DNA from: the human T2T-CHM13v2.0 reference genome, Homo sapiens | NCBI RefSeq assembly: GCF_009914755.1 | Contig: NC_060944.1 | Length of the DNA stretch: 64,000 nt | Direction: 5' to 3' (one strand) | In this document: piece after piece, positions 36,608 through 64,000 of the stretch | Layout of the letters: every line of letters begins with the position of its first letter | Numbering within the stretch: the stretch's first letter is position 1 | Program-made: the position numbers and the translations under genes | Notes under the pieces: model-generated | Told to the model about the DNA's origin: nothing | The model's input: the letters and a program-made list of their open reading frames with translations, nothing else | Databases searched by the model: none

Positions 36608-37534
36608 AGACACTTTCTTATCCTTTGTAGATTGCTGCTACTTCCTCCGAGAAGCCTTGCATCCTAATCCCTACATATCTGCCTATCCTCCTGCCCCACA
36701 GGGCTGTGAGCCTCACAATGGCATTTGATAAACATTCTGTGCTGTCTGACATCTCATTCCCCGCCTTCACCCAAGCCAGGCCCCTCCTATCCCAGGAGCA
36801 GTGAGAGCACCCCGCTGGAATTGGCAGCCACTCCCAGCTGTGTGACCTCAAGTGAGTCACTTCACCTCTCTGGTCTTCAGTCTTCTCATCCTGTCCTCCT
36901 CGCACTCCCCCAAGGCTTCTCAGAGATTAGTCAGGTTCTAATGTCACCGTGAGTGAAGTGGGGACAGCGGGTGGGCGTGCTGCACCATCGTTTGGTGGTG
37001 TTGAGGGGATAAGCAAGAAAGAAGCCACTCTTCCTTAAAGGTCTCTGTGTCTTAGACACCTTTCCTTAAAGATGCTTGTGTTTTTCCATCAGGTCCTTAA
37101 CAACTGCCATGTGGGCAGAGCTCTCAAAACTGCTGAAACCAGCCGTCCTCCCTTCCCCAAACTACACTTGTGACCCCGGAAGAGCTCAAACGCCTGCTTC
37201 AACTTAGCTCCAAGGACAAGCCGCTTAGTTCGGACCTTTAAGGTCCTTTTAGGGCACCCACAGCGGCTGCTTCCTGCCTTTCGGTTTCTCTTCCAGTTTT
37301 GGAAGAACCCCCCACCCCATTCCTTTTCTGTTCCTCAGTCCGTCCATCTTCCTGCCTGGCTGCCCCTCCCTCTCCGCGACCCTGGACTCTCCTGCTGTGC
37401 ACAAGGTGCCCCCTGTGCTGTCCTCAGAGCTTCTGGGACAGAAGGCTCAGAGCAGACGTCTGGGGTGGTCCTCGTCCCGCCCCGCCCCTGGCCCCGCCCC
37501 ACGGCTCCGCCTCTGGCCCCGCCCTGCCCCTCAC

Positions 37535-37654
37535 CGGTCTTGGGGTCCACGGTGAAGTGGTGCTCGCCGTCCAGCACGCTGTACACCAGCCGAGCGCTGC
37601 TGCCGTACGTGGGGTCATCCGCATCCGAGGCCATCACCTGCATCACCGACGTGC
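37535..37654 (-). CDS. CDH22: CDH22 exon 4 (EC2, first half)
   Basis: acceptor gcccag|GCACG; 120 nt; [40 protein letters not shown]; donor G|gtgagg. Confidence 0.95.
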
Positions 37655-39529
37655 CTGGGCCCGGGGGACCAAGCGAGACAGGGGTCATCTGGGGCTGCGG
37701 AGCTCGTTCCCCCACTTCGCCTCACCCCAGGGAAGCTGGGAGAGGAGACCCTCGGGAGACCTGCGGGAGGCCATCGAATACAGCCCCTCACGGTCCCCAT
37801 CCCCACTCTGAGCCCCAACCCTCTTCCTGTTTTGAGGCCTTTCTGGTGGCGCAAGTGTGACCATGGAGTCAGATCTGGATTCAAGTCCCCTTGGGGTGGT
37901 TCCCAGCTGTAGGACTCTGGCAACGAAAGGCAGCCTCTCTGAGTCTGTTTCCTCTTCAGCAAAGTGAGGCAAATCCTAGTGCTTGGTTCACTAGGTTGAG
38001 GGGATGAATTCTAAACTCCCAGCACAGAGCTGTTCACAGAAGTTTCTCAATGATGGCGACAATCATTACAGTCATCACAGTCAGTTGGAGCCAGGACTGG
38101 AAACCAGGACCTGACTCTCAACCCAGGGGCCATTCTACCCACTCCAGCTCCTACTGATTCTTCAAGGGACTTCTGCCTCCTCTCCCCGCATGATGGTGGT
38201 AGGGGACAGCCCAGAGGGACAGACCAATTCATCGGGGGTCAGAGGCCAGTGTCTCTTGGCCCCCGGCAGGAGAGGGCAGCACCCAGCCTTCCCTTTGGAA
38301 AGTTGTTGGCTGCGGGCCCTGGTGCCCTCCTCGCCCCTCCCCCTGGGTGCCCAGACAGCCCACCCCCAGACACACACACTTCTCATGCTCTGCACGTAGA
38401 CTGCTGGGGAGAGTATAAATTGGATAAAAGTCCATCAAACAGTGGCAATTAAGTTATTGATTTTTGACGCTGCCTCATTAAACCGGGAGCTTCTTTTGGT
38501 CTGTCCCAGAGATGGCTCTAATTTGACATCATGTTCAATTTGACGAAAGCAGGGCTTGGGACGTGAGGCTAGACCAGGTGGGGGTGGGGGTAAGGGTGGG
38601 GGAGGGTCAGGTGGAGGGGCCAACAAAGCCATTGAATCCACCCAAACCTTTCCAGAAAGAAGAGGGTGAGCTGGAAGACTCAAGAGTGAGTCTTGGGGGT
38701 TCAGGATACGACCCAAAGGGAAGGAGATGGAGACCCCACCTCAGAGAGATGCCCTCTGCTGGGTGCCTGCTGGTGGGGCCAGGCAGGCCCCTCCTGGGCT
38801 GGGCTGGGCTCCCTGGGCCAGCAGGGCTGCATGCTGGGAGGTGAGGCCAGTTCACTGCCTGGCTAATGAGTGAGAATCTGGAAGTGCTACTGCAGCAATT
38901 CTGCTAAGCCCAGCCCGCCGCCCGCCTCTCCCGCCTCCAGCCTGGGGCCCTCGATCATTCCAGACAGACACATGTATTTATTTTTCACTCTTTTGCATTT
39001 CTCATTTCCCTCTCCAGGTTCCCCCTCCCAGCCACAGTCTCCTAAAACGTCCCTGCAATGCGCCTCTCTCTTTGGCCACTCCAGCTCCATGTCAACCATG
39101 TCAGAGTTGACCAGAGAAGCTGAGGAAGAGGGATGGGCAAGCCCCTTCCCTCCAGATGCTGGTGCCCAGGGGTCTCCTACTCAGGGAGGACACAGCTCCA
39201 GGTGCCTCTTGCTGGACTGGAATTATGTCCTATTGAGCACTCATGACACACTGGCTTCACCAGCCACTTAAATCCATCATCTCTAATCCTCATAGCATCT
39301 CGGAGATGCAGAGTGGCCCCCCCCCCCAATTTTACAGCTGAGGAATCAAGTCAGACAGGGGAAAAGATTTCACTGAGGGCACAGAGTGAGGAAGTGGTGG
39401 AATTTGAACCCGGGACTCTGGGATGCCAAGTCCCTTCTGGGAAGCAGTATCAGCACAAGTACAGTGACTTTGGGGACAGTGGTCTGGTGTACTGAGTCAC
39501 AACCAGCGATGGCACTGCCACTTATTAGA

Positions 39530-39710
39530 AGTTTGACCTTGGATCTGTCATGAACCGCTTTGTGCTTCAATCTCCCCATTTTGTGAAATGAGGGTGGTAG
39601 TATTACAGATCTCCTGAGATCATTTTGAGAATTCAATTTCCACGTCCAGCACCAAGGACAGTGCCTGAACCATGCCAAGAACCCAATAAGTGCAGGTTGT
39701 TGTTGTCAAC
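39530..39710. mobile_element. MIR carrying RE1 no. 1 (one of many MIR fragments in the window)
   Basis: tgaccttgg...gtgcttca...tgtgaaatg...acagtgcctg...caataa follows the MIR core/3' layout. Confidence 0.65.
39645..39665 (+). promoter_or_regulatory. RE1/NRSE (REST site) no. 1
   Basis: TCCAGCACCAAGGACAGTGCC versus consensus TTCAGCACCnnGGACAGCGCC. Confidence 0.8.
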
Positions 39711-40303
39711 TCAAGAGGCACAGCACACCAGTATACAATGGCACAATTATGCCTCCCTCACAGAGGTGCTGAAATGGGAGAAGATACATAAAGCATCAGG
39801 CTTATGGTGGGTGCACAATATCTAGTGGCTGTTGTAATTGTTATGAGAGAGGGTCTCCCTGTCACTCCCCTGGCAAGTCCCTCCCACTCCCTGGGCAAAG
39901 CACAATGCAGGGCTGAGTGACTCCCCAGAGACATGGCTGAGCTCTCTCTCTCCCTGGCTGCATCCCAGGGACTCCCGAGGGGATGATGGAACCATTTCCC
40001 CAATCCAGGATTCTTTATTGCAGCCATTATAGTTAATGCCGACATGTGGGAATGGTAAAGGGTCAGTGATTCACCACTGGTTTCCCAGGCCCCAGAGGAA
40101 TGGCTTCCTTGGGCCACACACCCCCTCCCACCTTCTTCAGAAGTCAGCAGCTCCCCAGAATTGGCTGACAAAAGGGTGCCAGGCTTGTAGCTACTGTGGG
40201 ACCACCTTGGGGTGGTCCCACAGGTTCAGCAGTTTATATTTCACAGTGCCGCATCATGTCCATTCTCTCCTGCAGACTTCACACCAGCTCTGTGATATAG
40301 ACG

Positions 40304-40511
40304 CAGTGGTTTGTTGGTGAGTCAGCTCTGAGGGGTGGATGGGTCGGGAGGAGTGCCCTGCTTTGTAATGTTTGCTGATTTCCATGGTGTAAATATTCTC
40401 TCCATGGCCCAGTTTCAAGCTACCAACATGATATCAACTGGCCCACAAAACTCCTGAAAATCAACATGTGGCTCTCGTGAGCTGGTACGAGCTGACTCCA
40501 GCACACCCCTG
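40304..40511 (-). mobile_element. MER63-like hAT element
   Basis: ttcaagctacc...ctcctgaaaat...gagctggtacgagctgactccagcacac. Confidence 0.6.
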
Positions 40512-40869
40512 CACCATCCCCATTTCACAGCTGAGGAGACTGCTATGCACAGTGAAGGGTGAAAACATGAATTAATAATGAAATCCATTATGAATTATGT
40601 AACATTATTCAATAACTGATAAAGATAGCTTCCATTTATTAAATAACAACTTTGTACTAGATACTATGATATAAGCCCTTTTTGTATATGATAGAATTTA
40701 CAAAACAGGGCCTTCAGATAAGCTTTTAATATTTTCACTTTAAAGAGGAGGAAATGGAGGCTGAGTGAAGTTAAGTAATGAACCTCTTAGTGCTTCCATT
40801 TCCTCATTAGTGAGATGGGTAAGAATACTACCAAACTCGTGGATCACTGTGAGAACTCAGATTTCTATG

Positions 40870-40890
40870 CTCAGCACCAAGGACAGTACC
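40870..40890 (+). promoter_or_regulatory. RE1/NRSE (REST site) no. 2
   Basis: CTCAGCACCAAGGACAGTACC. Confidence 0.8.
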
Positions 40891-41160
40891 TTGACAAGCT
40901 CACCTGGTGCAGGAGAGAGGCAGGTTTCAAACCCACGTGGATCTGATGTCAAAGCCCACATATATCCTGCCTTAGAGGGAGGAGGAGGGGCTGCTTGGAG
41001 TAGAAGTAGATAGGTGAGACAGAGAGAGGGAGGACTCAGACACAGGAGCAGGGGGGCAGAGGAGGGGAAGGACAGGAGCTGGGTTTAGATTCTCCCTCCC
41101 CTACAGCTGGTCCAAGCCCAGACTTCCAGAAGTAGAGCTGGGACTGGTTGACAGGAGCGG

Positions 41161-41181
41161 GCTGCTGTCCGTGGTGCTGCT
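41161..41181 (-). promoter_or_regulatory. RE1/NRSE (REST site) no. 3
   Basis: Minus strand AGCAGCACCACGGACAGCAGC; core CAGCACCACGGACAGC matches consensus exactly. Confidence 0.8.
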
Positions 41182-41337
41182 GCCCAGCCCTTCTGCTAAG
41201 TGGTGGTTAAGGGCCTAGGTCCAGGCTGGAATGGGAAGGGTTGCCCAACTGATTCTTGGCTAAACAGGATCTCAGGGCCCATGGATCCATGTGGAATGTT
41301 AGATATGGAATGGCTTGTCCTTGAAGAGCACAGAAAT

Positions 41338-41510
41338 CAGAGCTTCTCAACTTGGCAGCACGTTAGAATCTCTTGGGAGCTTTAAATAACATTGATGTGG
41401 AGCCCCATCCCTGACCAATTAAATAGGACTCTTGGGGAGGAGCCCAGGCAAAGGTATTTTCACAGTCTCCAGAGTGCATCTAAAGTGTCTCTCGGTCTAA
41501 AAACTGATGC
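41338..41510. mobile_element. MER5-like hAT fragment
   Basis: cttctcaacttggcagcacgttagaatc...ccaattaaat. Confidence 0.55.
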
Positions 41511-44500
41511 CCTAGACTGAATCCCTCACTGAACTGATGAGGAAATTGAGTCACAGAGGGGCTCGATGACTTCCCCAGGGACACATCATTAGTAAGCAGT
41601 AGGGAAAGATTCAAACTCAGGTCTGCCTAGCCAGCATGCTGCCCTCCTGGACTCATTGAGCCTGTTCTGAGACTGACACCTGAAGGAAGCAGGTAGGATA
41701 ATGTTGCCACCAAGTCATTAGAGCTCTTCCCAGCTGAAGTCAGCATGAGAAGTCGGACACTCTTCAGAGGAGATGCCCTCGCATCTCCATGGAGACTGGG
41801 TGGGCTTTGGCATCACAGAGTCCTGTGGTTTCAGGTCCTACCACTTCCTCACTCTGCAACCTCAGTCAGATCTTTTACCCTTTCTGATCCATTTCCTCAC
41901 CTGTAACATTAAGGGGTGCCCATTCTGAGCCTCTGAGCTGCTATGAGGATTAGAAATGATGGATTTAAGGACCCAGTGTGTCGTGGGTGCCTAACAGAAG
42001 CTCATTCCTTTCCCTTCTCTCCGTATCATCAGGAGGCACCTGGGGCTGTGCCTCCCTGAGTAGAAGACCCCTGGACACCAGCATCAGGAGGGAGGGGGCT
42101 TGCCTACTCCTCATCTCTGTGTTGTTCTGACTTGGTTTGTTGTGGAACAAGAATTGGAATATGTGTCCTGGATCCCAGGCCAGAATTCTTTTTTTTTCTT
42201 ATCCCTTAATCCTTGCTATCTGTGAAGTGCAGTTGAGTCTCCAGACTCAAGTTCCAGACCCCCCAGGAGGAGCCCCCCAGCTGGCTCTGGGAGTGGGTGG
42301 TGCTGCATGGAGTGGAGCTCAGGGATTACAGACATACATTCTCATTCCAGCCCTGTCCTTGGCTTTGTGTGGCTGTGGAAAAACTTCCCAATCTGATTGG
42401 GCCTCAGTTCCCCTTCTGTAAAATGGAGATAACACTTTATCATTCCTGTCTCCCTGGGTGTGGGAGACCCCTTAATGAGAGAAAGAGATGAAGCACTTTG
42501 GAAAAGAACAGAGTTCTCAGCCGAGGTGACCACATGTCATTATTATGAAGACGTTTGTAATTATTATCATCCTGCCTCTTCCCTACCTCCTTTTGCCACC
42601 CCACTGGGTCTGGGGAAACCCTAGGCTCACATTTAGCTTCTCAAACATTTATAAAAAATGAGTCCCACCCCTGCTGCTGCCAGCACTGTGCAGAATGCTT
42701 TCTATTAAAAATTAAAAACCACTTGTCGAGTCTCTGGGAACGCTCAGATTACACAGGAAACAAGCCCCCTCTCAACATCCACCCCTGCTGCCCTCCTCCC
42801 AACTCCCTCTTCGATCATCACTTAGAATGCCAGCTGGCTGGGCTGGCCTCGACCCTGCTTCTAGCCTCCCAGCCAGGGCAGCCTAATGCAGATGAATGGC
42901 ACACAGGAGATGCAGGAAAGTGGCTGCATGGGAGGAGGCAGGTCCAGAGACAAGTGACAGAGAAGGCAGCACAGAGAGAGGGGTCAAGAAAGCGGGTAAG
43001 AGACAGAGAAAGAAGGGTCAGAGGGACAGAAGTTCGTGGGGCAGAGACAGACAGAAAGCAGTAGAAACACAGAGGTTAAGTAGGAAACCAGAGGAATCTA
43101 GAAACAGAGACAGAGCAAATAGAACAGAGACAGAGGTACATATGGAGCAGGAAGAGGGGGCAGAGCAGGAGGAGGAACTAGGAGAGGAAGGTGAAGTTTG
43201 GCCTGGTGGGGTGAGGGGCCTGCTGCATTGCACCTTCCTCCAGAGTCTCCAGGGAACGTGAAACACCCTCCCCTCCTCACCTTTTCTTTCCTTATGGATC
43301 CCGGCCATGGACTTGCCCATCCAGGCGACCCCTGACTGTGTGTGTGTGGATCTGCTATGTCCTCCTGAGAGAGAGCACTCTCTTATATCCCAAATAGACC
43401 CACAAGCGCTTCTGTCCTCTCAACATTTACCAGGCCCTCTGTTATGCAATCTAGTGACTTTGTTTGTTTCGGACTGCAACATTTGAAGTATCTGTGATAG
43501 CATCCTTCTACTCATGGCAGAAAGCAAACATTTTTGCTTATGATTCAATTCCATTCATTCTCTCAACATCTACAGAGCACCTACTATGTGCTAGACCCTC
43601 GAGGGCAGGATGGTAGCTTTATCATCTTTGCACCCTAATGCCATGTGGCCACAGGGCCTGGCATACAGAGAGTGCTCATATTTGTTGGATGATTTGTTGA
43701 TGGAAAAGACAAAAAGAGACAGGGATATATTCCTCCCTGTCCAGATTACCCGGGCCATGGGGCCAACTCCTGAGGACCAGGGCCTCGGCTCCTGTCTGCT
43801 GCTTCTCCCCACCAGAAGCCTCCTGTCCCGTTCCCCCCAGCACGGGTGGTGAGAGCCAGTGCCGTTGCTAGGCAAGGAGATATTGCACATATAGATCTTC
43901 CTGGACTTTAATTAAAAACATCTTTAGAAGTTGTCTCTGCAGAGACCAGCGATTGATTCCTGGCTTGGGCCTGCGGGCTGCTGAGCTACACTCTCTCCAG
44001 CTACAGACGGGACAATTGGAGGCTCCCAGCCTGCTGCTGCCCTCTCCAAATGATATCCTTGGGGAACACACTCCTTCCTGCCTTCCTCCTTTCCTCTCTG
44101 TTCCCCCAAGCACCGAATTTAAGAATCAGATAGTGTGCTCTCCCAGTTTTACTTTCCTTCCCCTCTTGAGCCTCAGTTTCCATAGCTGTAAAATGGGGAT
44201 GTCAGTACTTAACCCAAGAGAGTCCCCAGGAGGCTGAAATGATATTAGGGATGTGAAAGTGATTTTCAAGCTGTGAAGTTTTGTGCAAGAAATGATTGTG
44301 ACTCTTTCCTCAAAGAAAGCTATGGATGCCGAGCCAAGGAACTCAGGTTCTGGTTTCCGCTTCTGGGTCTAGTTCTGGCTTCAGCTCTTACTGTGGAAGC
44401 TCAGAAAAATCACTTTGCATTTATTTTTTCATTAGTAACATGAAGACACTAATACTGATCCTGCTTATTCCTCAGGATTGTGAGAATAAAGGGAAATAGC

Positions 44501-51990: not shown

Positions 51991-54900
51991 CAGGTCCACT
52001 GCTCCCTAGACTCTGCACCCCAGGAGATTGGGGTGGCATCTTCCTCATTTTGGTATATGGAGAACCAGGCTCAAGACATAGCACATGACAGGGAGTGAAG
52101 GGAGAGAGGAGGAAGGGATGTTAACTGAAAGAGCACCTTCCATGTGCCAGGCACTGGCTAAGCAATTTATGTACTTTTCTAGTTAAAGATGCTTTTTTTA
52201 AAAACCTGCTAGAGTAGGTTTTTCTATCTTTATTTTACAGATTTTTTTCCCACTTCCTAATGAAGATTGGAGAAGTGGGATGGGTTCTTCAAGGTCAGGC
52301 CACTGGAAGAGCTGGTCTGACTCCACACTGGGCTTTCCCATTCCATCTAAAGCCTCCGGAGAGGAGCCCAGGGGAAGGGAGAGACAGTGCAGCCTGGCCC
52401 AGCCTTGGCTCTGACATCGCCTCCCTGTGCATCCTCACCCATCACTTTGCCTCTCTGGCCCTCAGTTGCTTCATCTGTAACATGGGAATCATATTAGCAT
52501 TTTCCTCCCAGAGGTACTGAGGGGTTTGCTGAGTTGAGAATCCATACAAGGCCCTTAGCAGGTGCCACCAAGTGACATTTACAATATTTAGCAGCCAGCA
52601 CGGTGGGGGCACTGCCCAGGCAGTGGTACTGCAGCAGGATCCCTGCTGGGCCAGGCAGGAACCCTTCAGTTGCTGGATCACAGAGAGGCCCAGGGGGCTG
52701 AGAGAGTTGGGGCGAGGGAGAGGAGAGGGACTATTTACTGCAGGTATGGAGGTTTTTCATGATTTTAACAACAAGTACAACTGTACCAGTTTGTACTACC
52801 TGGAAATAAGCCCTGTCTGAGACATAATAAGTGCCCAACAAATGGTAGCTATCGTTATTATTATATTATTACTGCATGTTAGCTATATATAACCAGGATT
52901 TAATCTAGGCACTATTAGGCTCCAGATTCCAGGCTGTTTTCACTGCCCTGAGATCTCTTGGGTGAGGAACCAGCAAGACGTCTGTTTTCTTGCAATCAGA
53001 AACACCTAAGTCCTTATCTTCCAATGCCCAAATCTCCCAGGCAGCTTCAAGCAGAGGAAAATCCATTCCGATGAGGCTTTGGGCAGGTCCCTGCTCCTCT
53101 CTAAGCTTCCATGGAGATGGAGTGTGGACAAGAGAATCCCTAAAGTTCCTTTCAGGCTGGGGTGCTGGGGACCCCAGCCCACTAGGCAGGAGAACAGGTG
53201 CCCATGAAGTCATCACGAAGAGGGACGAAAGCCCATCCCCTGCCACGCAGGAGGAGCCGGGGTATAAATTCTGCTGGTAGAACTTTGTGTCTGAAAGGTG
53301 GATTATAGAAGTGCCATTTGGAAGATTGAATGGCCCATAAACATTTTCATATTTCATTAGCCGATTAATGGGCATCTCTCTCTTTTTGGCGAGTCTGCTG
53401 ATTCTCAGCAGAAATTGCGGGGACTAAATGGAGGCGTCTGGTGGAAACTTTCCGGGTCCCCGTCCTGTTATAGATTGCCCCAATTAATGCCCGTCCTGGG
53501 CTCCACTGAGAAGCCTTCTTCCTGTCCAGTTACTGTTAATAGATTTCTCATAAGTGGCTGGATTGTAAAAACCTCATAACTCAGTTTAATGCCCCCAATA
53601 AAATTATTTCAGGACATCGGCCCTGAATCATTGGCAGTGCTGAGGATGAGGAGACCTGTCTCTCCTGTTTGCTGTTTATACGTTTTTTCCACCATTGCCC
53701 CAGGGGAGATGGGATGAGAGGGGGTGATTCTGTTCCCTTTTGGGGTGCCTCTACCTGCTTCCCAGCCTGATCTGTTGTCTGCTTATTTCATCAGCAAACA
53801 CTTCTGAGCAGTGTGGTAGAATAGATGCCATTTGAAGAGATGCTTAACAGCTATAATCTTACTAGTCTTCATCATTGCCCTGTGAAACATTATCATTCCC
53901 ATTTCTCAGGTTAGAAAACTGAGGCACAGAGAGGGGAAGTCATGTGCTGTGTCACATGGCTAAGTGTGGAAAGCACGCTTCTGACTCTACCACTCACTAA
54001 TGTTGGGACCATGGATTTGTGAATTTTACCTCTCTGAGCCCCTGTGTTTCCACCTGAGAAATCACACCAAGCCCTACTTGGCACAGGTGTGGGGAGGATT
54101 AGATGAGAGCATGTTTACATTGACCTAAGCACTCTGTTAATGGTTGTTTCCTTCCCTTTCCATCTCCTGGGTCTCCATCATGTCCCTGCAGGCCTTGATG
54201 TTTTGACTCAGACCCCAGGCAGGGCTCACTTACGAGTGAGGAATGGAGAGGAGCGAGTAGAACCTAGTGGTGATGTCATCTTCTGTGGAATATGACACAG
54301 AGCTCACGCTGGGGCCTACTGGCTGCTCTCTGGGGACTGCAGAGTCAGACAGGGGCAATCTGCCTGGGCGGGAGCTAAGATCTGGGAGTTACGAATTCAG
54401 GCCCAGCTGGGGTTGCCTGCCCTGCCTGCCTGGGTCCCGGCTCCAGAGTGAAGAGGGAGTGCCTCTGGCTCTGCCCTAGGAAGATATTTCTCAGGACTCT
54501 CAGCTGCGAGTGGAGGCTGGAAGATGGTGCTCTCATTTATTGAGAACCTACTATGTGTCAGACATGTGTTGCAGGCCATCTGCAGAAATCCAACTTGACT
54601 TTGTGGGGTTTGTAAATGTATCCCTATTTTCCAGGTGAAGAGACTGAGATGGCCCCCGGTCTGTTTGACTCCAAAGCCCAGTTTGGTTTCTCTGCAGTCT
54701 CTGGGAATCTGGCTAGTCTGCTTACAATGCCTATAGCAGAGGGTGAGGGAGAAAAGGGGAAGGGGGGAAGGAGTGGGTTACTGGGTGGCCACTGGGCTGC
54801 ACAGCTTGGGTGGTGGCCTTGACACCAGTCTTTTGCCCTGTGCCGTGCAGGCCACAGTCATCGGTGGCCTCTTCTCTCTAAGCCTCCATTTTACCACTTG

Positions 54901-57385
54901 GGAAAGAACCTCAAACTACAAATCAGGAAAGATTATGTGCTTTGGAGTCAGAAGCAGCTCTGTACCAGCTTCAGCTTTGCCAGCAACCTGTGCATGACCC
55001 TGGGCAAGTGGCTACCCTTCTCTGAGCCTCAGTTTTCTCATCTGTAAATGGGACTGATATTGCTTCACCACATATATTCTGAAGATTCATAAGATAATAT
55101 ATGGAAGCTCCTTGCGCTTAGTAGGTGCTCAATATAGATTAGTTCCCTCTCCTTTTCCTGTCCCAATCTCAGGAGGGGTCGAGGGGTCACCTAATTCATC
55201 CCCTATCTCCTGATACAAGAACCACACAGACTCAAATCCTGACCCACTGGAGATCCAGGGGCCATGATCCAATCAATGCCTTCTTGTCTTTCAAACTCAG
55301 CTTGTTTCCTCCTCCAGGCAGCCCTCTCAGATGCCCTCTCATTTGGTTGAAGAGACCTCACCTGCTCCGTTCCTGCCCCGTACACATGCCCCTCTACTCC
55401 ACACCCTCCTCTAACTTCTAGTGTTGCACATCTGTGTCCCCAGCTGTCATGGGCCTCAAGGTATGGACTAAGTTAGGTTTGTCTCTGTCAGAACTCTCTG
55501 TGCCTGGCACACACTAGGTACCCTGACAATGCCTGCAGAGAAAATACAGGGGGTGGGAAAGTTGAATATGTGTGTGTGTGTGAGTGCACGTGAGTGTGAG
55601 CTTGCAAGCTCCTTGAGGGCCAAGCATCTGGCTGTTTATTCCATCTCCCCAGCACCCAGCACGGGGCACAGCACCAAACATATTGAATAAATGAATAATA
55701 AAATATACAACAGTCATCAGACTCCCCCAGTTGTCTTCTAGGATTTCTGGAGGATTCAGCCACTCTTAAATCCCAGGTACAGATGGACAGTCGCTGGGAA
55801 CCTGAAACACTCCAGGCACAGTTCTAGACCTTTTACTGCTGTCTCATTGATGTCTCATCTTGTGCATCAGAGCTTACTCTCTCCCCGTCGTGTAGATGGG
55901 CAAACTGAGGCCCAGAGAGAGTCTAAACCCCACCTAAAGTCACACAGGTAATGAGAGACGGCCCCAAAGCCTGACACCACATTCAGAATTCTTTCTACCA
56001 CATCAAGTGTGGCCAGCCCTGGAGGAGAAATCCCCCTCAAGCCCCATCCCTTGATCATAAACAACATGAAAAACACAAGAGCGATGTTTTCTCATCCCAG
56101 GGGGCTGAAAAATGGGATTTATGAAGCCATTAATTACTTCCTCCTAATTAAATCAAAATTAAATGTGAGCATAGGTACGTTTTCCTTATTAAAGACAATT
56201 AAACGGACAGTGCGGCTACGCAAATAAAATGAGTCCAGGATTTAAACGGAAAGCAAATCAAATAAAAAGCCTCCCCGGGATGAGGGGTCTGTTCACGACT
56301 GTGCTACTCGTAAACCAGGAGTTCATCAATTTTCTTTAAATATTAGCAACTTAATTAAATCTGCTCTCCTCCCCACTTTAATCCTGCCGTATATCTAAAA
56401 TAGATCTCACCACCTACAGGAGTTGGTCATGAGTGCTGACCCCATAATTCTATCTTTTTTTAAAAAATTAAAAATCCTACAAAATCCACATCCAGCTGAC
56501 AGAGGCCTCGGGGGAAATTATAGTTCGGAAAAGGGATTAGTCAGAGTACCCAGATTTTATGGAAATGCTGGGAGGTTGCTTTGAGGGTGGGTGTCGTGAG
56601 AAGGTTCGGGGAGAGGTGGGCCAGGGTTGCCAATGGGGGCAGGGCCGCGGAAGGAGCTGTTTGTGTGGGGCCTTGGCGACAACCGCGGGGCCCAGCGGTT
56701 CCTGTGGGTGCTGACAGGAGCCTGGCGGTGAGTGATGGAGGAGGCGGTTGTAAAATAGGTTACCGTCGGGCGCCCGGGGTTCACTCTGCGGATGGTGCTG
56801 TTGCTAAGCTACCTTTAGAATTCGACAAGGACGGATGCTCCGAGCGGCTCCCTGGGGTGGGGGGAACCAGGAAGCAGTGAATTAACTGAAACCGTGGTGA
56901 AGTCCTTTCTTCCTGAAGAGTGAGAGAGCGTGGTATGAGAGTGTGTGTTTGCATTCATATGTGCCCACACAAGCACTCGTACATACGAGGGACTCAGCTG
57001 GAAAGGGGACAGGTGGCTTTTAAAAGCCCAAGCTCATATTCCTAGGGTTGGGGGGTGGGGTGGGCTAATGACAACCTTCCCCCCCACTTAGTGGTAAGAA
57101 ACTATACTGTTAGGTTGCCAAAAAGACTTTTTGGGATTTGGGGCGGGAGTTCACAGTTAGATGGTACACTCAAGATGGTGGAACTATCCATAATAGTGAG
57201 ACTTACAAGGTGAGACTTAACAACATAAAAGTGAATACTTACTGAGCACGTGCCAGGACCCAGAAAGTATTCTAGGTTCTTGACAAATGCTAACTCACTG
57301 ACTCCCCAACGCCAGACTTTGAGCTAGGTCCCAGTAATAGCCTCACTTAACAGATAAGGAAACTGAGGCACAGAGAGGGTAAAAA

Positions 57386-61330: not shown

Positions 61331-61690
61331 CCTTGGCCTGCGCGGGGCTGGGGCCCAGGAGCATGGACGAGAGGCACCAGGGCGCCGCTGCTTGGTCGCA
61401 CAACGATGCGGCGCCGTGTCACATGGTGGCCTCAGCGCGGCCGCCGGGATGTCGCCCCCGACGGGGCACCCGGACGGGCCCGCGGCCCTGAACGCCGCCC
61501 AGCCGCGGGGGTACCCGGCTGGAGGGGGAGGGGGCGCGGCCGCATCCGGGGCATGGACAGCCCCCGGGGTGCCCGCCCGCGCCCCCCTCGCCGCGTCGCG
61601 TGCGGATCACCAGGCAGCACCTGGACAGCTCCAGAGTCGGGGAAGCGCCATGGTTCCTGCGCAGAAAGGATGCGGGTTGGGGCCGGCAGA
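61090..61690. promoter_or_regulatory. CpG island over exon 2
   Basis: Very high GC and CpG density compared with the CpG-depleted flanks. Confidence 0.85.
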
Positions 61691-61729
61691 TCCTGCCAGG
61701 ACTAGGGGCCTTCCCTTTCCATCAGGAGC
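61331..61729 (-). other. CDH22: 5' UTR part of exon 2 (399 nt), GC-rich, with multiple uAUGs
   Basis: Strong acceptor gttttcttgtttctcttgcag|G at 61731/61730 implies an upstream non-coding exon outside the window. Confidence 0.75.
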
Positions 61730-64000
61730 CTGCAAGAGAAACAAGAAAACATTAGAGGGGCTTCTGTGTAGGGGGAGGGCAAGTTGAGTCTATCTTTCCT
61801 CTTGTAGGTACTAATTAAACACCTGCTGTGTGCCTGGTACTGTGCAGGGTGGGACAGGCATCATAGCAACTCACAGTGGTCCCCTCTTCTTGGAGCCCAT
61901 AGTCTAGTAGGCGCCCTCTCCCGCACATCGCAGCCTCTCCTTTCACCTGGCATCATACGCCCTGTACTCCCAATCTCCTACGCCTTTCTCACAGCCCCTG
62001 CCCCGCTCAGCCCTCATGCCCACACAAGGAGAGACCCTAGTAGGCAGTGCCCCTGACCTGGCTGACAATCTCTCCAGCCCTGCCCAGCCCCCAGAAATCC
62101 CCCACCCTAGGTGCTTCTAGAAGGCATCTTCAAGAGCCCCCAAGACCCAGGCCTCCTTGGTGCACAGAAGTCCAGCACCCAGCCCACCACCAAATATGCC
62201 TGCCTTCCTATCCATCGCAGCACAGACAGGTCATTCCATCTGAAACAGGCACCAAGGGAAGGCCCTCTGATGTGCTCGTACCCCCACACCAGCTTCTAGG
62301 GATACAGCACCTGAGTCCCAGAGGGCCTGGCTTGGAGACACCCTCAGTGACTCCGGGCAGGGTCACAACCCCTCTGAGCTTGCCTCTGGTGCCTCCACAT
62401 TCCCCCAGAAAATATTTCTTTCCCAGAGTCCGAGAGACATCTTTCCTCCCCACTCTTGGACCAGCCTGCCGTCCCCAGATCCATCCATCTCTCTTCCCTT
62501 CTCTCTATCAGATCCTGCTTTCAGCAGGAAAGGATCTGAGGGACTAACGCCTACTCAAGCCATAAGATGAATAATGGCTTAATGTGGGTGTTTACAGGGG
62601 ACAGCGATGCTGCTTAATGGAGGAATTTCAGGCACAGAGAGGAGTGTGTGGAGGTGAGGGGCTCAATCCCCACTTCTCCTTCTCCTGATCCCAGTTCAGC
62701 TCAGTTCAACAGCTCAGTTCCACCAAGCTTCAACTTTGTGCCAGGTTTGGCCAGTTGCCAGGGGCAAGGTAAATAAGCTCACAGTTTAGTGGGGTGGAAG
62801 GTGAAACCCTTCTTATAACAACCTAAATGCTAGGTGGCATATGATCGGGGCTATAAAAGTGTCTGTGTGGACAACCTGAGACCTGTGGGGCTCAGGGAAG
62901 GGACTGAGCTCGGGTGTTTGGAAAGGGAAAGTAGGCGGGAGGCAATCAGGGTTACTTCTTGGAGGAGGCGGCATCTGAGCAGATGGGAAGAAAGGGATGG
63001 GCATTTCAGGCAGAGGAGTGTGCATGGTGGCTGAGTGGTCTGGCCAGTTTGGGGAGTTAGATTGTGAGCAGGGGTGTGTGTTTGGGCAGATGGTGTGTAG
63101 TGGGTTGGGGTGGGAGGCTGACCTGGCCCTAGCCAGATCTTCCTGAGAACAAAGAAAGTGGCCTAACTCTAGGGAGGAAGAAACGCAGACCACCTTCTTT
63201 AACCCAGCATCACAGTGGGCAATGCCCTTCCCTTTAACTCACGGGAATCACAACTCTGAAAATTGTCTTATGCCTATTTTGCAGATGCCTAATTCCCCAG
63301 TGCTTTTTTTTCTAGCATCTCCTCCGGAAAATCTTTATGGAAGGAGTTTCAGGGTAGGGAGTCATTGCTGGAAGGTGAGGGTGACGGTGAAGGGGTTAAG
63401 CTGTAGTTCTGGGCAATGAGAGTGGGAAAACGTCCACACTCCATAGGGAGGGATGGAGGGAGGGGTCTGGAACACGCTGTTCCCTCTTTCCCTATAGGTC
63501 CAAGCCTGAACTCATGGGGTCAGGAGGACCCATGATCCTGTGGTGAACATACCCTGCCTGGTATGACTTCTATGGGCCTGGGCACGAGGCTTCCCAACCC
63601 TGGCAGCCCTGCTCCGCAAGCCCTGCTCTGTGCTGCCACCTCCAGGGATCCGGCTTTGATTCCCTGCATTATGACCTGGGCTGGTCGTAATGAGACTGGA
63701 GTTATGGGTGAGGAGGAGGTGCAGCTCCAAAGCCTTCATTTCCTGGAGCGTATGGCTTCCCTGCGTGCCCCATGGGAACTGTTCCCCCAACTCCAACAAG
63801 CAGCTCCAGGGCCCATCACAGCCCTGCAGGGATGCAGAGGAGGGGAGAGGCTGAAGGGAGAGAGAATTTGGAGGGAGGCTGCTGTCACTTCTGGAGAGGG
63901 CTGTGGAGGTCGATGGAGTGGCATGTCAAGGGGAGATCTGCCAGTGTTCACGGGCACCAAGCTGTTGCTCTCCTTCCCTCCTTTCCTTTATTTCTTTGTT

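What the first reader, a model, noticed from the sequence alone, without database searches (positions are those of the whole stretch)
39550..40895. A REST silencer that appears to have arisen in a MIR SINE and then been duplicated into a second MIR
Seen: RE1 no. 1 and no. 2 share CAGCACCAAGGACAGT and sit at the same position of a MIR-like segment, where the MIR consensus as I recall it reads ...catgtaaagcgcttagaacagtgcct. Segments 39550-39669 and 40778-40895 align by eye over about 120 bp and share non-consensus features (atgaacc, gtgcttc, gatca, tgagaa.tca.atttc). The second copy interrupts an opposite-orientation MIR (...gaggctgagtgaagttaagtaa | insert | ccttgacaagctcac...ttcaaaccca). Inference: a MIR mutated into an RE1 once, and the RE1-bearing fragment was then copied about 1.2 kb away. 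The RE1 core stayed identical while the flanks diverged, which suggests purifying selection. Known: RE1s can derive from transposons such as L2; I cannot tell whether this case has been described.
Basis: partly seen in the sequence, partly recalled or inferred. Interest (0 to 1): 0.85.

Follow-up and report, generated by a model that had tools for sequence, protein, structure and literature searches.

The report
Repeat-born REST site, locally duplicated
In an intron of human CDH22, a binding site for the neuronal-gene repressor REST sits in the tail of an old SINE repeat, and a 111-base piece carrying it has a second copy 1.2 kb away, likely made during DNA break repair; both sites lie under published REST peaks, so this is a neat example of two already known processes.

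Summary
RE1 #1 (39645-39665) lies in the tail of a near-full-length MIR-type SINE. RE1 #2 (40870-40890) ends a 111-bp insert that splits an opposite-strand copy of the same SINE. With the RE1 excluded, the two segments share 12 non-consensus bases, more than any of 2,562 control pairs (mean 3.2, max 11), so they are a true local duplication. Size, 1,225-bp spacing, a single other copy and no poly-A match repair-mediated duplication (Pace 2009). Published hESC REST peaks cover both sites, and both motif scores exceed the published silencing threshold. Weaker points: selection on the duplicated core is only suggestive (Fisher p 0.04-0.07, site chosen because it matched). Reporter data (GM12878 only) show nominal motif-dependent repression for #2 and none for #1. 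Mouse peak spacing hints that mouse lacks the insert. MIR-born RE1s are uncommon (0 of 50 other exact-core sites), and I found no paper describing this case. TE-derived RE1s and duplicated binding sites are both in print. New member of known kinds; interest 0.4.

The parts
39438..39710 (+). Near-full-length MIR-type SINE (copy 1, inferred donor)
   Evidence: nhmmer with a locally built profile, model 24-307, E 3.3e-20; family name recalled
39549..39659 (+). Donor segment that matches the insert (ends approximate)
39645..39665 (+). RE1 #1, TCCAGCACCAAGGACAGTGCC, in the SINE tail
   Evidence: published FIMO MA0138.2 score 28.18
39503..39821 (.). hESC REST ChIP-seq peak, score 2080, labelled conserved in mouse ESC
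   Evidence: PMC4499139 Table S2; offset fixed by the MPRA oligo and checked on 3 SLC12A5 peaks
40613..40778 (-). Host MIR-type SINE, 3' part (left of the insert)
   Evidence: model 133-309, E 1.6e-8
40779..40889 (+). 111-bp insert (copy 2); junctions can slide between 40774-40779 and 40886-40891; AGT stands at both junctions; no poly-A/T tail
   Evidence: junction scan
40870..40890 (+). RE1 #2, CTCAGCACCAAGGACAGTACC; its last 1-4 bases may come from the host
   Evidence: FIMO 26.79; scrambling raised expression in 4 of 4 GM12878 enhancer contexts seen, 2 nominally
40890..40956 (-). Host MIR-type SINE, 5' part (right of the insert)
   Evidence: continuous with the left part once the insert is removed
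40738..41324 (.). hESC REST peak, score 3986, 586 bp wide, centred at 41031, the midpoint of RE1 #2 and #3 (41026)
41161..41181 (-). RE1 #3, AGCAGCACCACGGACAGCAGC, outside any MIR-type hit, inside RefSeq silencer 41064-41264
   Evidence: FIMO 26.27; hub annotation
39094..39434 (+). Left arm of an inverted duplication (SINE copy plus about 140 bp of non-MIR flank) bracketing the RE1 cluster
41802..42137 (-). Right arm of the inverted duplication
   Evidence: 74% over 321 columns, E 3e-53; K2P 0.23; only these two copies found in the genome search

Best explanation
Two strong, REST-bound RE1 sites in a CDH22 intron descend from one site that likely arose by mutation in the tail of a MIR-type SINE and was then likely copied, as a 111-bp piece, into a nearby opposite-strand SINE during double-strand-break repair. 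Step 1 (shown: position; inferred: origin): the SINE tail is a proto-site about 5-6 changes from the RE1 core. In copy 1, substitutions plus a shortening of about 5 bases just upstream produced the core. Step 2 (shown: common descent, insert size, broken host; inferred: mechanism): a break in the host SINE 1.2 kb away was repaired by copying from copy 1, with no loss of host sequence, no tail and at most 3-4 bases of microhomology. The copied piece stops at the RE1's 3' edge. Step 3 (shown in published data): REST occupies both sites and a third, non-MIR RE1 291 bp on. Step 4 (inferred): the three sites act as a homotypic cluster that helps REST and its co-repressors keep CDH22 low outside neurons. 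Age: about 0.14 substitutions per site on each copy, roughly the early placental to early primate period on a recalled rate.
For: Shared non-consensus bases: 12 of 16 doubly derived columns, RE1 excluded; 0 of 2,562 control pairs reach 12. Normalised score 0.47 against a maximum of 0.43 in 7,973 background pairs. Local score 49 between the copies, against best 28 and 39 among 182 other SINE hits. The copies are sisters in a 92-row tree, SH-aLRT 95 / UFBoot 97. Both have a short spacing before the tail, 32 and 33 nt against a median of 37 in 17 copies. The host rejoins at 60.4 bits. Size and spacing fit Pace 2009: mean 162 bp, distance peak near 1,200 bp. REST peaks centre on the sites. FIMO scores are 28.2 / 26.8 / 26.3 against the 20.86 threshold. 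Scrambling #2 gave +1.12, +1.14, +0.11 and +1.88 log2 in GM12878. The peak over #1 is conserved in mouse ESC.
Against: Scrambling #1 gave +0.50, +0.35, -0.84 and -0.26, none significant. A rare variant in #1 showed no significant skew in 5 of 5 GM12878 contexts. The #2 effects miss FDR 0.05 (about 0.10 and 0.06, reading the column as -log10). On the earlier normalised test, 3 of 2,562 pairs equalled or beat the focal pair. 69 of 2,329 pairs reach the raw identity of 76%. Other two-leaf clades in the tree also get UFBoot 94-98. Microhomology of 3-4 bases is weak at 23% divergence. The two mouse peaks are 1,417 bp apart and each about 180 bp wide. That fits #1 to #3 without the insert (1,405) better than #1 to #2 (1,225), so #2 may be absent or unbound in mouse. 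No data here link these sites to CDH22 expression.
Confidence: 0.8

Rival explanations
1. The duplication is real, but RE1 #2 is a bound passenger. The identical core reflects chance, ascertainment or a short gene-conversion tract between direct repeats 1.2 kb apart. Any function rests on #3 and #1.
For: Core-versus-flank Fisher p is only 0.04-0.07. The site was noticed because it matched. Mouse peak spacing and width suggest one bound site at the #2/#3 position. The RefSeq silencer covers #3 only.
Against: The human peak is 586 bp wide and centred between #2 and #3, implying both are bound. #2 is the one with nominal motif-dependent repression. 16 of 16 bases are identical while the flanks differ at 21 of 91.
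Confidence: 0.25
2. One complex template-switching event made both the 111-bp direct copy and the 340-bp inverted copy. Candidate source segments lie side by side (39094-39434 and 39549-39659).
For: Similar divergence: K2P 0.28 (bootstrap 0.17-0.44) and 0.23. The segments are 115 bp apart, and all copies lie within 3.1 kb.
Against: The two copies landed about 900 bp apart, not as one chimeric insert. The direction of the inverted copy is unknown. The confidence interval is too wide to show the same age.
Confidence: 0.15
3. The RE1 arose in one copy after the duplication and reached the other by gene conversion.
For: The core is identical while the flanks are 23% diverged.
Against: The insert ends at the RE1's edge, leaving almost no 3' homology for conversion. 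The 5 bases just upstream of the core differ at several positions. It needs one extra event.
Confidence: 0.05
4. The two segments are independent insertions of one MIR subfamily (or unrelated MIRs) that each drifted to an RE1.
For: SINE/L2-type tails are proto-sites: 28 exact core-plus-tail sites and 87 one-base neighbours genome-wide.
Against: No third relative was found genome-wide. Copy 2 lacks the 3' tail and any poly-A/T. The chance per MIR tail of an exact core is about 5e-6. The copies share 12 non-consensus bases outside the RE1.
Confidence: 0.02

Closest known systems
Repair-mediated duplication (RD; SDSA-type capture of proximal DNA), Pace et al. 2009, PMC2671141
   Same: A TE is interrupted by an insert of at least 50 bp with continuous consensus coordinates. 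There is one donor within 5 kb, the size is near their mean (162 bp), the distance is at their peak (about 1,200 bp), and there is no poly-A. They report 22 of 824 donors with predicted TF sites.
   Different: Older (23% raw divergence, against 6-18% in the 12 'All primates' chr20 rows seen). The insert is itself SINE-derived, which their filter for nested TEs would probably discard (inference). The duplicated site has measured occupancy. CDH22 is not in their Table S1 (0 hits).
TE-associated and duplicated RE1s, Johnson et al. 2006, PMC1557810
   Same: RE1s inside TEs, duplicated RE1 families, transposon-independent duplication, multi-RE1 genes and head-to-tail pairs.
   Different: Their enriched family is LINE2. 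MIRs are significantly under-associated there and depleted 2.2-fold among expanded sites in PMC4499139. Here the site arose after insertion and was copied at DNA level, not spread by retrotransposition.
L2 3'-end-derived RE1s (family label by eye and recall)
   Same: Same tail sequence after the core: 6 of 30 unselected exact-core sites have it.
   Different: Their upstream sequence is not MIR-type: 0 of 50 sites, against both focal copies.
Canonical strong RE1 silencers (MPRAduo, Mouri et al. 2022, PMC9903721)
   Same: All three sites were library members (motif inside an ENCODE REST peak) with scores above the m-value.
   Different: Motif-dependent repression is seen only nominally for #2 and not for #1 in the GM12878 rows visible. 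No scrambled control for #3 was found in those rows.

Membership tests
Canonical RE1/NRSE | Two half-sites with a 2-bp spacer in a 21-mer | tested here: met
   All three sites have 0 mismatches in the 13 half-site bases; they are the only such sites in the window at up to 1 mismatch
Canonical RE1/NRSE | Motif score above the functional threshold (20.86) | tested here: met
   Published FIMO 28.18, 26.79, 26.27; oligo sequences match the window
Canonical RE1/NRSE | REST occupancy in cells | tested here: met
   hESC peaks map to 39503-39821 and 40738-41324; #2 and #3 share one merged peak
Canonical RE1/NRSE | Motif-dependent silencing in a reporter | tested here: inconclusive
   GM12878, 4 enhancers: #2 positive in 4 of 4, 2 nominal, FDR about 0.06-0.10; #1 2 up, 2 down, none significant; other cell types cut from the file
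Canonical RE1/NRSE | Represses its endogenous target gene | not testable with these tools
   CDH22 has one row in Table S7 of PMC4499139 (HEK microarray; direction not shown); no site-level data
MIR SINE | Homology along a high-copy consensus about 260 bp long | tested here: met
   184 hits in 354 kb; copy 1 E 3e-20 over model 24-307
MIR SINE | Match to the curated MIR/MIRb/MIRc consensus (Dfam/RepeatMasker) | not testable with these tools
   No repeat library held; name recalled; paper searches for a printed consensus gave nothing usable (listings only)
Repair-mediated duplication | TE split by an insert of at least 50 bp, consensus coordinates continuous within 30 bp | tested here: met
   111-bp insert, host rejoins without loss
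Repair-mediated duplication | One donor only, within 5 kb, insert at most about 620 bp | tested here: met
   (2 matches each; lower bound); spacing 1,225
Repair-mediated duplication | No poly-A/T tail | tested here: met
   sequence at both junctions
Repair-mediated duplication | Microhomology, filler or deletion at the breakpoints | tested here: inconclusive
   AGT at both junctions; six equal-length junctions score 57.7-60.4 bits; too short and too old to be sure
Repair-mediated duplication | Empty orthologous site in an outgroup | not testable with these tools
   No other mammal genome held; mouse peak spacing of 1,417 is an indirect hint only
Retrotransposed SINE insertion (for copy 2) | Intact 3' tail and target-site duplication | tested here: not met
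   Insert stops inside the tail at the RE1; no flanking repeat beyond 3-4 bases

The most novel reading that the evidence does not exclude
A fully traceable two-step birth of a silencer cluster. A MIR tail became a REST site before the human-mouse split and was kept. Break repair later copied it next to an existing RE1 in a lineage that excludes mouse. The younger copy is now the more active silencer and adds lineage-specific REST control of CDH22.
Probability: 0.25. Interest if true: 0.6.

Novelty: new member of a known kind. Interest (0 to 1): 0.4.

Why it matters
How long (21-bp) binding sites arise and how homotypic clusters form are standing questions. This locus shows both routes at base resolution in 1.6 kb: decay of a repeat into a site, and local repair-type copying of that site. 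Occupancy and reporter data already exist for the exact sequences. It is a useful worked example, from a repeat family in which RE1s are reported as depleted. It does not introduce a new mechanism.

Tried and rejected
Dispersed RE1-bearing MIR subfamily: rejected, only two copies found and 0 of 50 other exact-core sites have MIR-type upstream sequence. Those 50 were the first 30 listed of 91 non-focal sites (chr1-3, 5) and 20 of 27. The positive control detected 51 of 53 but was not independent of training. Fold-back copy of the host's own arm: rejected, copy 2 versus the rejoined host is 51% identical with 5 shared changes. Host SINE related to the inverted-repeat SINE: not supported (normalised 0.17 and 0.27; background 99th percentile 0.32). 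Genome-wide selection for tail-to-RE1 conversion: not shown, the RE1 form has 28 sites and the one-base neighbour 87. Stricter MIR-context patterns gave 0 and 0 and 1 near-core, too few to test. Using the third CDH22 peak (about 61470-61740) as a coordinate anchor failed, since no RE1 core lies there at up to 2 mismatches. Supplements of PMC1557810 and PMC2687797 could not be read. MPRAduo Table S6 was too large and Tables S9 and S14 were cut after GM12878 rows. These unseen files may list these sites or change the reporter picture. Literature searches for this case (listings with abstract starts) found no description; subscription papers are not covered. The control panel is from about 354 kb, mostly one region of chr20.

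Full report
1. Observation. The 15-mer CAGCACCAAGGACAG is at 39647 and 40872 on the + strand, and with one mismatch at 41165 on the - strand; shuffles give 0.35 such matches. A sensitive self-BLAST of 37000-44000 against the window found two strong local homologies. In the whole genome each direct copy finds only the other, and likewise the inverted arm. That search skips very common words, so these are lower bounds.

2. Is it a MIR? No repeat library was available. I built a profile by iteration from 354 kb of human DNA: the window, 200 kb upstream and 30 other loci. It was seeded on a non-focal copy, with 39000-42200 excluded from training, and gave 184 hits. I recognise its consensus as MIR from memory only. 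Copy 1 is near full length (39438-39710, E 3e-20). Copy 2 covers only the middle to tail (40765-40863, E 2e-6). A minus-strand copy ends at 40778. The RE1 core aligns to the consensus tail. In 63 background copies covering that tail, most are 4-7 mismatches from the core and the closest is 2. The product of column frequencies is 4.9e-6 per tail. With a recalled 600,000 MIR copies and 63 of 176 covering the tail, drift alone would give about one exact core per genome. The event is rare but needs no special mechanism.

3. Common descent. With the RE1 excluded, copies 1 and 2 each differ from the consensus at 26 of 82 columns. Both differ at 16, and share the same base at 12. None of 2,562 control pairs reaches 12 (mean 3.2, max 11). 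After normalising for divergence, 3 pairs equal or exceed it. On a larger panel the normalised value is 0.47 against a maximum of 0.43 in 7,973 background pairs; the inverted pair scores 0.65. Each copy scores 49 against the other and at most 28 or 39 against 182 other hits. Raw identity alone is less telling: 69 of 2,329 pairs reach 76%. In a tree of 92 of 184 rows (those covering at least 70 of 88 columns) the two are sisters at 95.2/97. Several other cherries also have UFBoot 94-98. Both copies have a short spacing before the tail, 32 and 33 nt against a median of 37 in 17 copies, 3 of which are shorter still.

4. The insertion. I scanned 99 junction pairs. Removing 111 bp restores one continuous minus-strand copy: best 40778|40890 at 60.4 bits, five other 111-bp choices at 57.7-58.2, against 30.3 and 7.2 bits for the pieces. 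There is no poly-A/T and no flanking repeat beyond AGT, which stands at both junctions. The insert ends at the 3' edge of the RE1, so the last bases of RE1 #2 may be host-derived. Copy 1 is complete and copy 2 is a fragment in a broken host, so copy 1 is the inferred donor. These features match repair-mediated duplications in Pace et al. 2009 (PMC2671141; read: abstract, introduction, first results sections, passages, and 15 of 21 chr20 rows of Table S1). Those have the donor within 5 kb, a distance peak near 1,200 bp, mean length 162 bp and no tails, and 22 of 824 carry predicted TF sites. CDH22 has 0 hits in their supplements. K2P between the copies is 0.28 without the RE1 (91 sites, bootstrap 0.17-0.44); the inverted pair is 0.23. 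On a recalled neutral rate near 2e-9 per year that is about 70 My (40-110).

5. REST binding. Table S2 of PMC4499139 (read: passages and supplement rows) lists hESC peaks at hg19 chr20:44858115-44858433 (score 2080) and 44859350-44859936 (score 3986), both 'conserved'. An offset fitted on the first peak predicted three SLC12A5 peak centres within 4-10 bp from RE1 cores in my upstream DNA. The MPRA oligos give the exact offset, 44,818,612. Peak 1 centres at 39662 (RE1 #1 centre 39655). Peak 2 centres at 41031, the midpoint of #2 and #3 (41026), and is about twice the usual width, so both are probably bound. 'Conserved' there means at least 1 bp overlap. The mouse peaks are 1,417 bp apart and 183 and 179 bp wide. 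Human distances are 1,225 (#1-#2), 1,516 (#1-#3) and 1,405 (#1-#3 less the insert); the nearby mouse/human scale is 0.98. So #1 is likely shared with mouse, and the second mouse peak is more likely #3. Whether mouse has the insert is open.

6. Silencing. Mouri et al. 2022 (PMC9903721; read: abstract, sections 10, 12, 13, 40, 49, supplement rows) tested these exact 200-mers. FIMO scores are 28.18, 26.79 and 26.27, above their threshold of 20.86. Scrambled minus native in GM12878 with En02, En09, En11 and En19 was +1.12, +1.14, +0.11 and +1.88 for #2 (logP 2.27 and 2.81 for En09 and En19; logFDR 1.02 and 1.20). For #1 it was +0.50, +0.35, -0.84 and -0.26, none significant. The paper says En02 and En11 do not respond to RE1 in this cell type. 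No scramble row for #3 was visible, and the file was cut before other cell types. A rare variant in #1 gave no significant skew in 5 of 5 contexts. The RefSeq silencer 41064-41264 covers #3, not the finding's pair.

7. Selection. An intact 13-base core at 76% flank identity has probability 0.029; Fisher p is 0.066 (13 bases) or 0.038 (15). The pair was noticed because it matched, and short conversion tracts are possible, so this is suggestive only. Genome-wide the 15-mer is far from random (93 against 1 for the reversed control), but that speaks for RE1s in general.

8. Comparison with what is known. Johnson et al. 2006 (PMC1557810; read: abstract and 11 passages) report TE-associated and duplicated RE1s, LINE2 enrichment, MIR under-association and transposon-independent duplication; CDH22 has 0 occurrences in the main text. 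PMC4499139 finds MIRs 2.2-fold depleted among expanded sites. My sample agrees: 0 of 50 other exact-core sites have MIR-type upstream sequence, while 6 of 30 unselected ones carry the same tail downstream with what look by eye like L2 ends. Local RE1 duplication is not unique either: two sites on chr10, 1.87 kb apart, align over 58 bp. Five literature searches aimed at this case found no description of it. cdh22 appears in a gene table of a Xenopus NRSE screen (PMC4430910, one passage).

9. Verdict. Real, well supported as a MIR-tail RE1 plus a local duplication with REST occupancy. The repair mechanism is inferred. Selection on the copy and effect on CDH22 are not shown. It is a new member of two known kinds, with an uncommon source family. 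Interest 0.4.

Noticed in passing
window 41161-41181 (-): Third strong RE1 outside any MIR-type hit, inside the RefSeq silencer 41064-41264; with #1 and #2 it forms a three-site cluster in 1.5 kb.
   Followed up: yes
window 39094-39434 and 41802-42137: Inverted duplication of about 340 bp (SINE copy plus non-MIR flank, K2P 0.23) that brackets all three RE1s; could pair in CDH22 pre-mRNA; donor direction unknown.
   Followed up: partly
window 39753-39773: Weak REST motif (left half-site on the minus strand, FIMO 7.1) in a SINE fragment; tested in MPRAduo without a consistent effect.
   Followed up: partly
L060 and L061 (G000:C10:97947105 and 97948975): Two identical RE1 cores 1.87 kb apart sharing 58 bp of flank: a second local RE1 duplication, apparently younger.
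   Followed up: partly
G000:C20:957349-957386: Another MIR-context tail one base short of the RE1 core.
   Followed up: no
window 61471-61737 (approximate): hESC REST peak over the CDH22 5' exon region with no RE1 core at up to 2 mismatches; probably indirect or non-canonical binding.
   Followed up: partly
window 53817-53989 and 54925-55149: Two opposite-strand SINE copies about 1 kb apart that share 10 of 11 doubly derived bases and are sisters in the tree (87/97); possibly another local duplication.
   Followed up: no
window 40300-40510 and 41335-41490: Look by eye like DNA-transposon relics (MER63-like and MER5-like; names recalled, untested).
   Followed up: no
G000:C11:49.07-50.07 Mb and 88.6-90.0 Mb; C17:16.7-28.7 Mb: Clusters of identical RE1 cores that probably reflect segmental duplications.
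   Followed up: no
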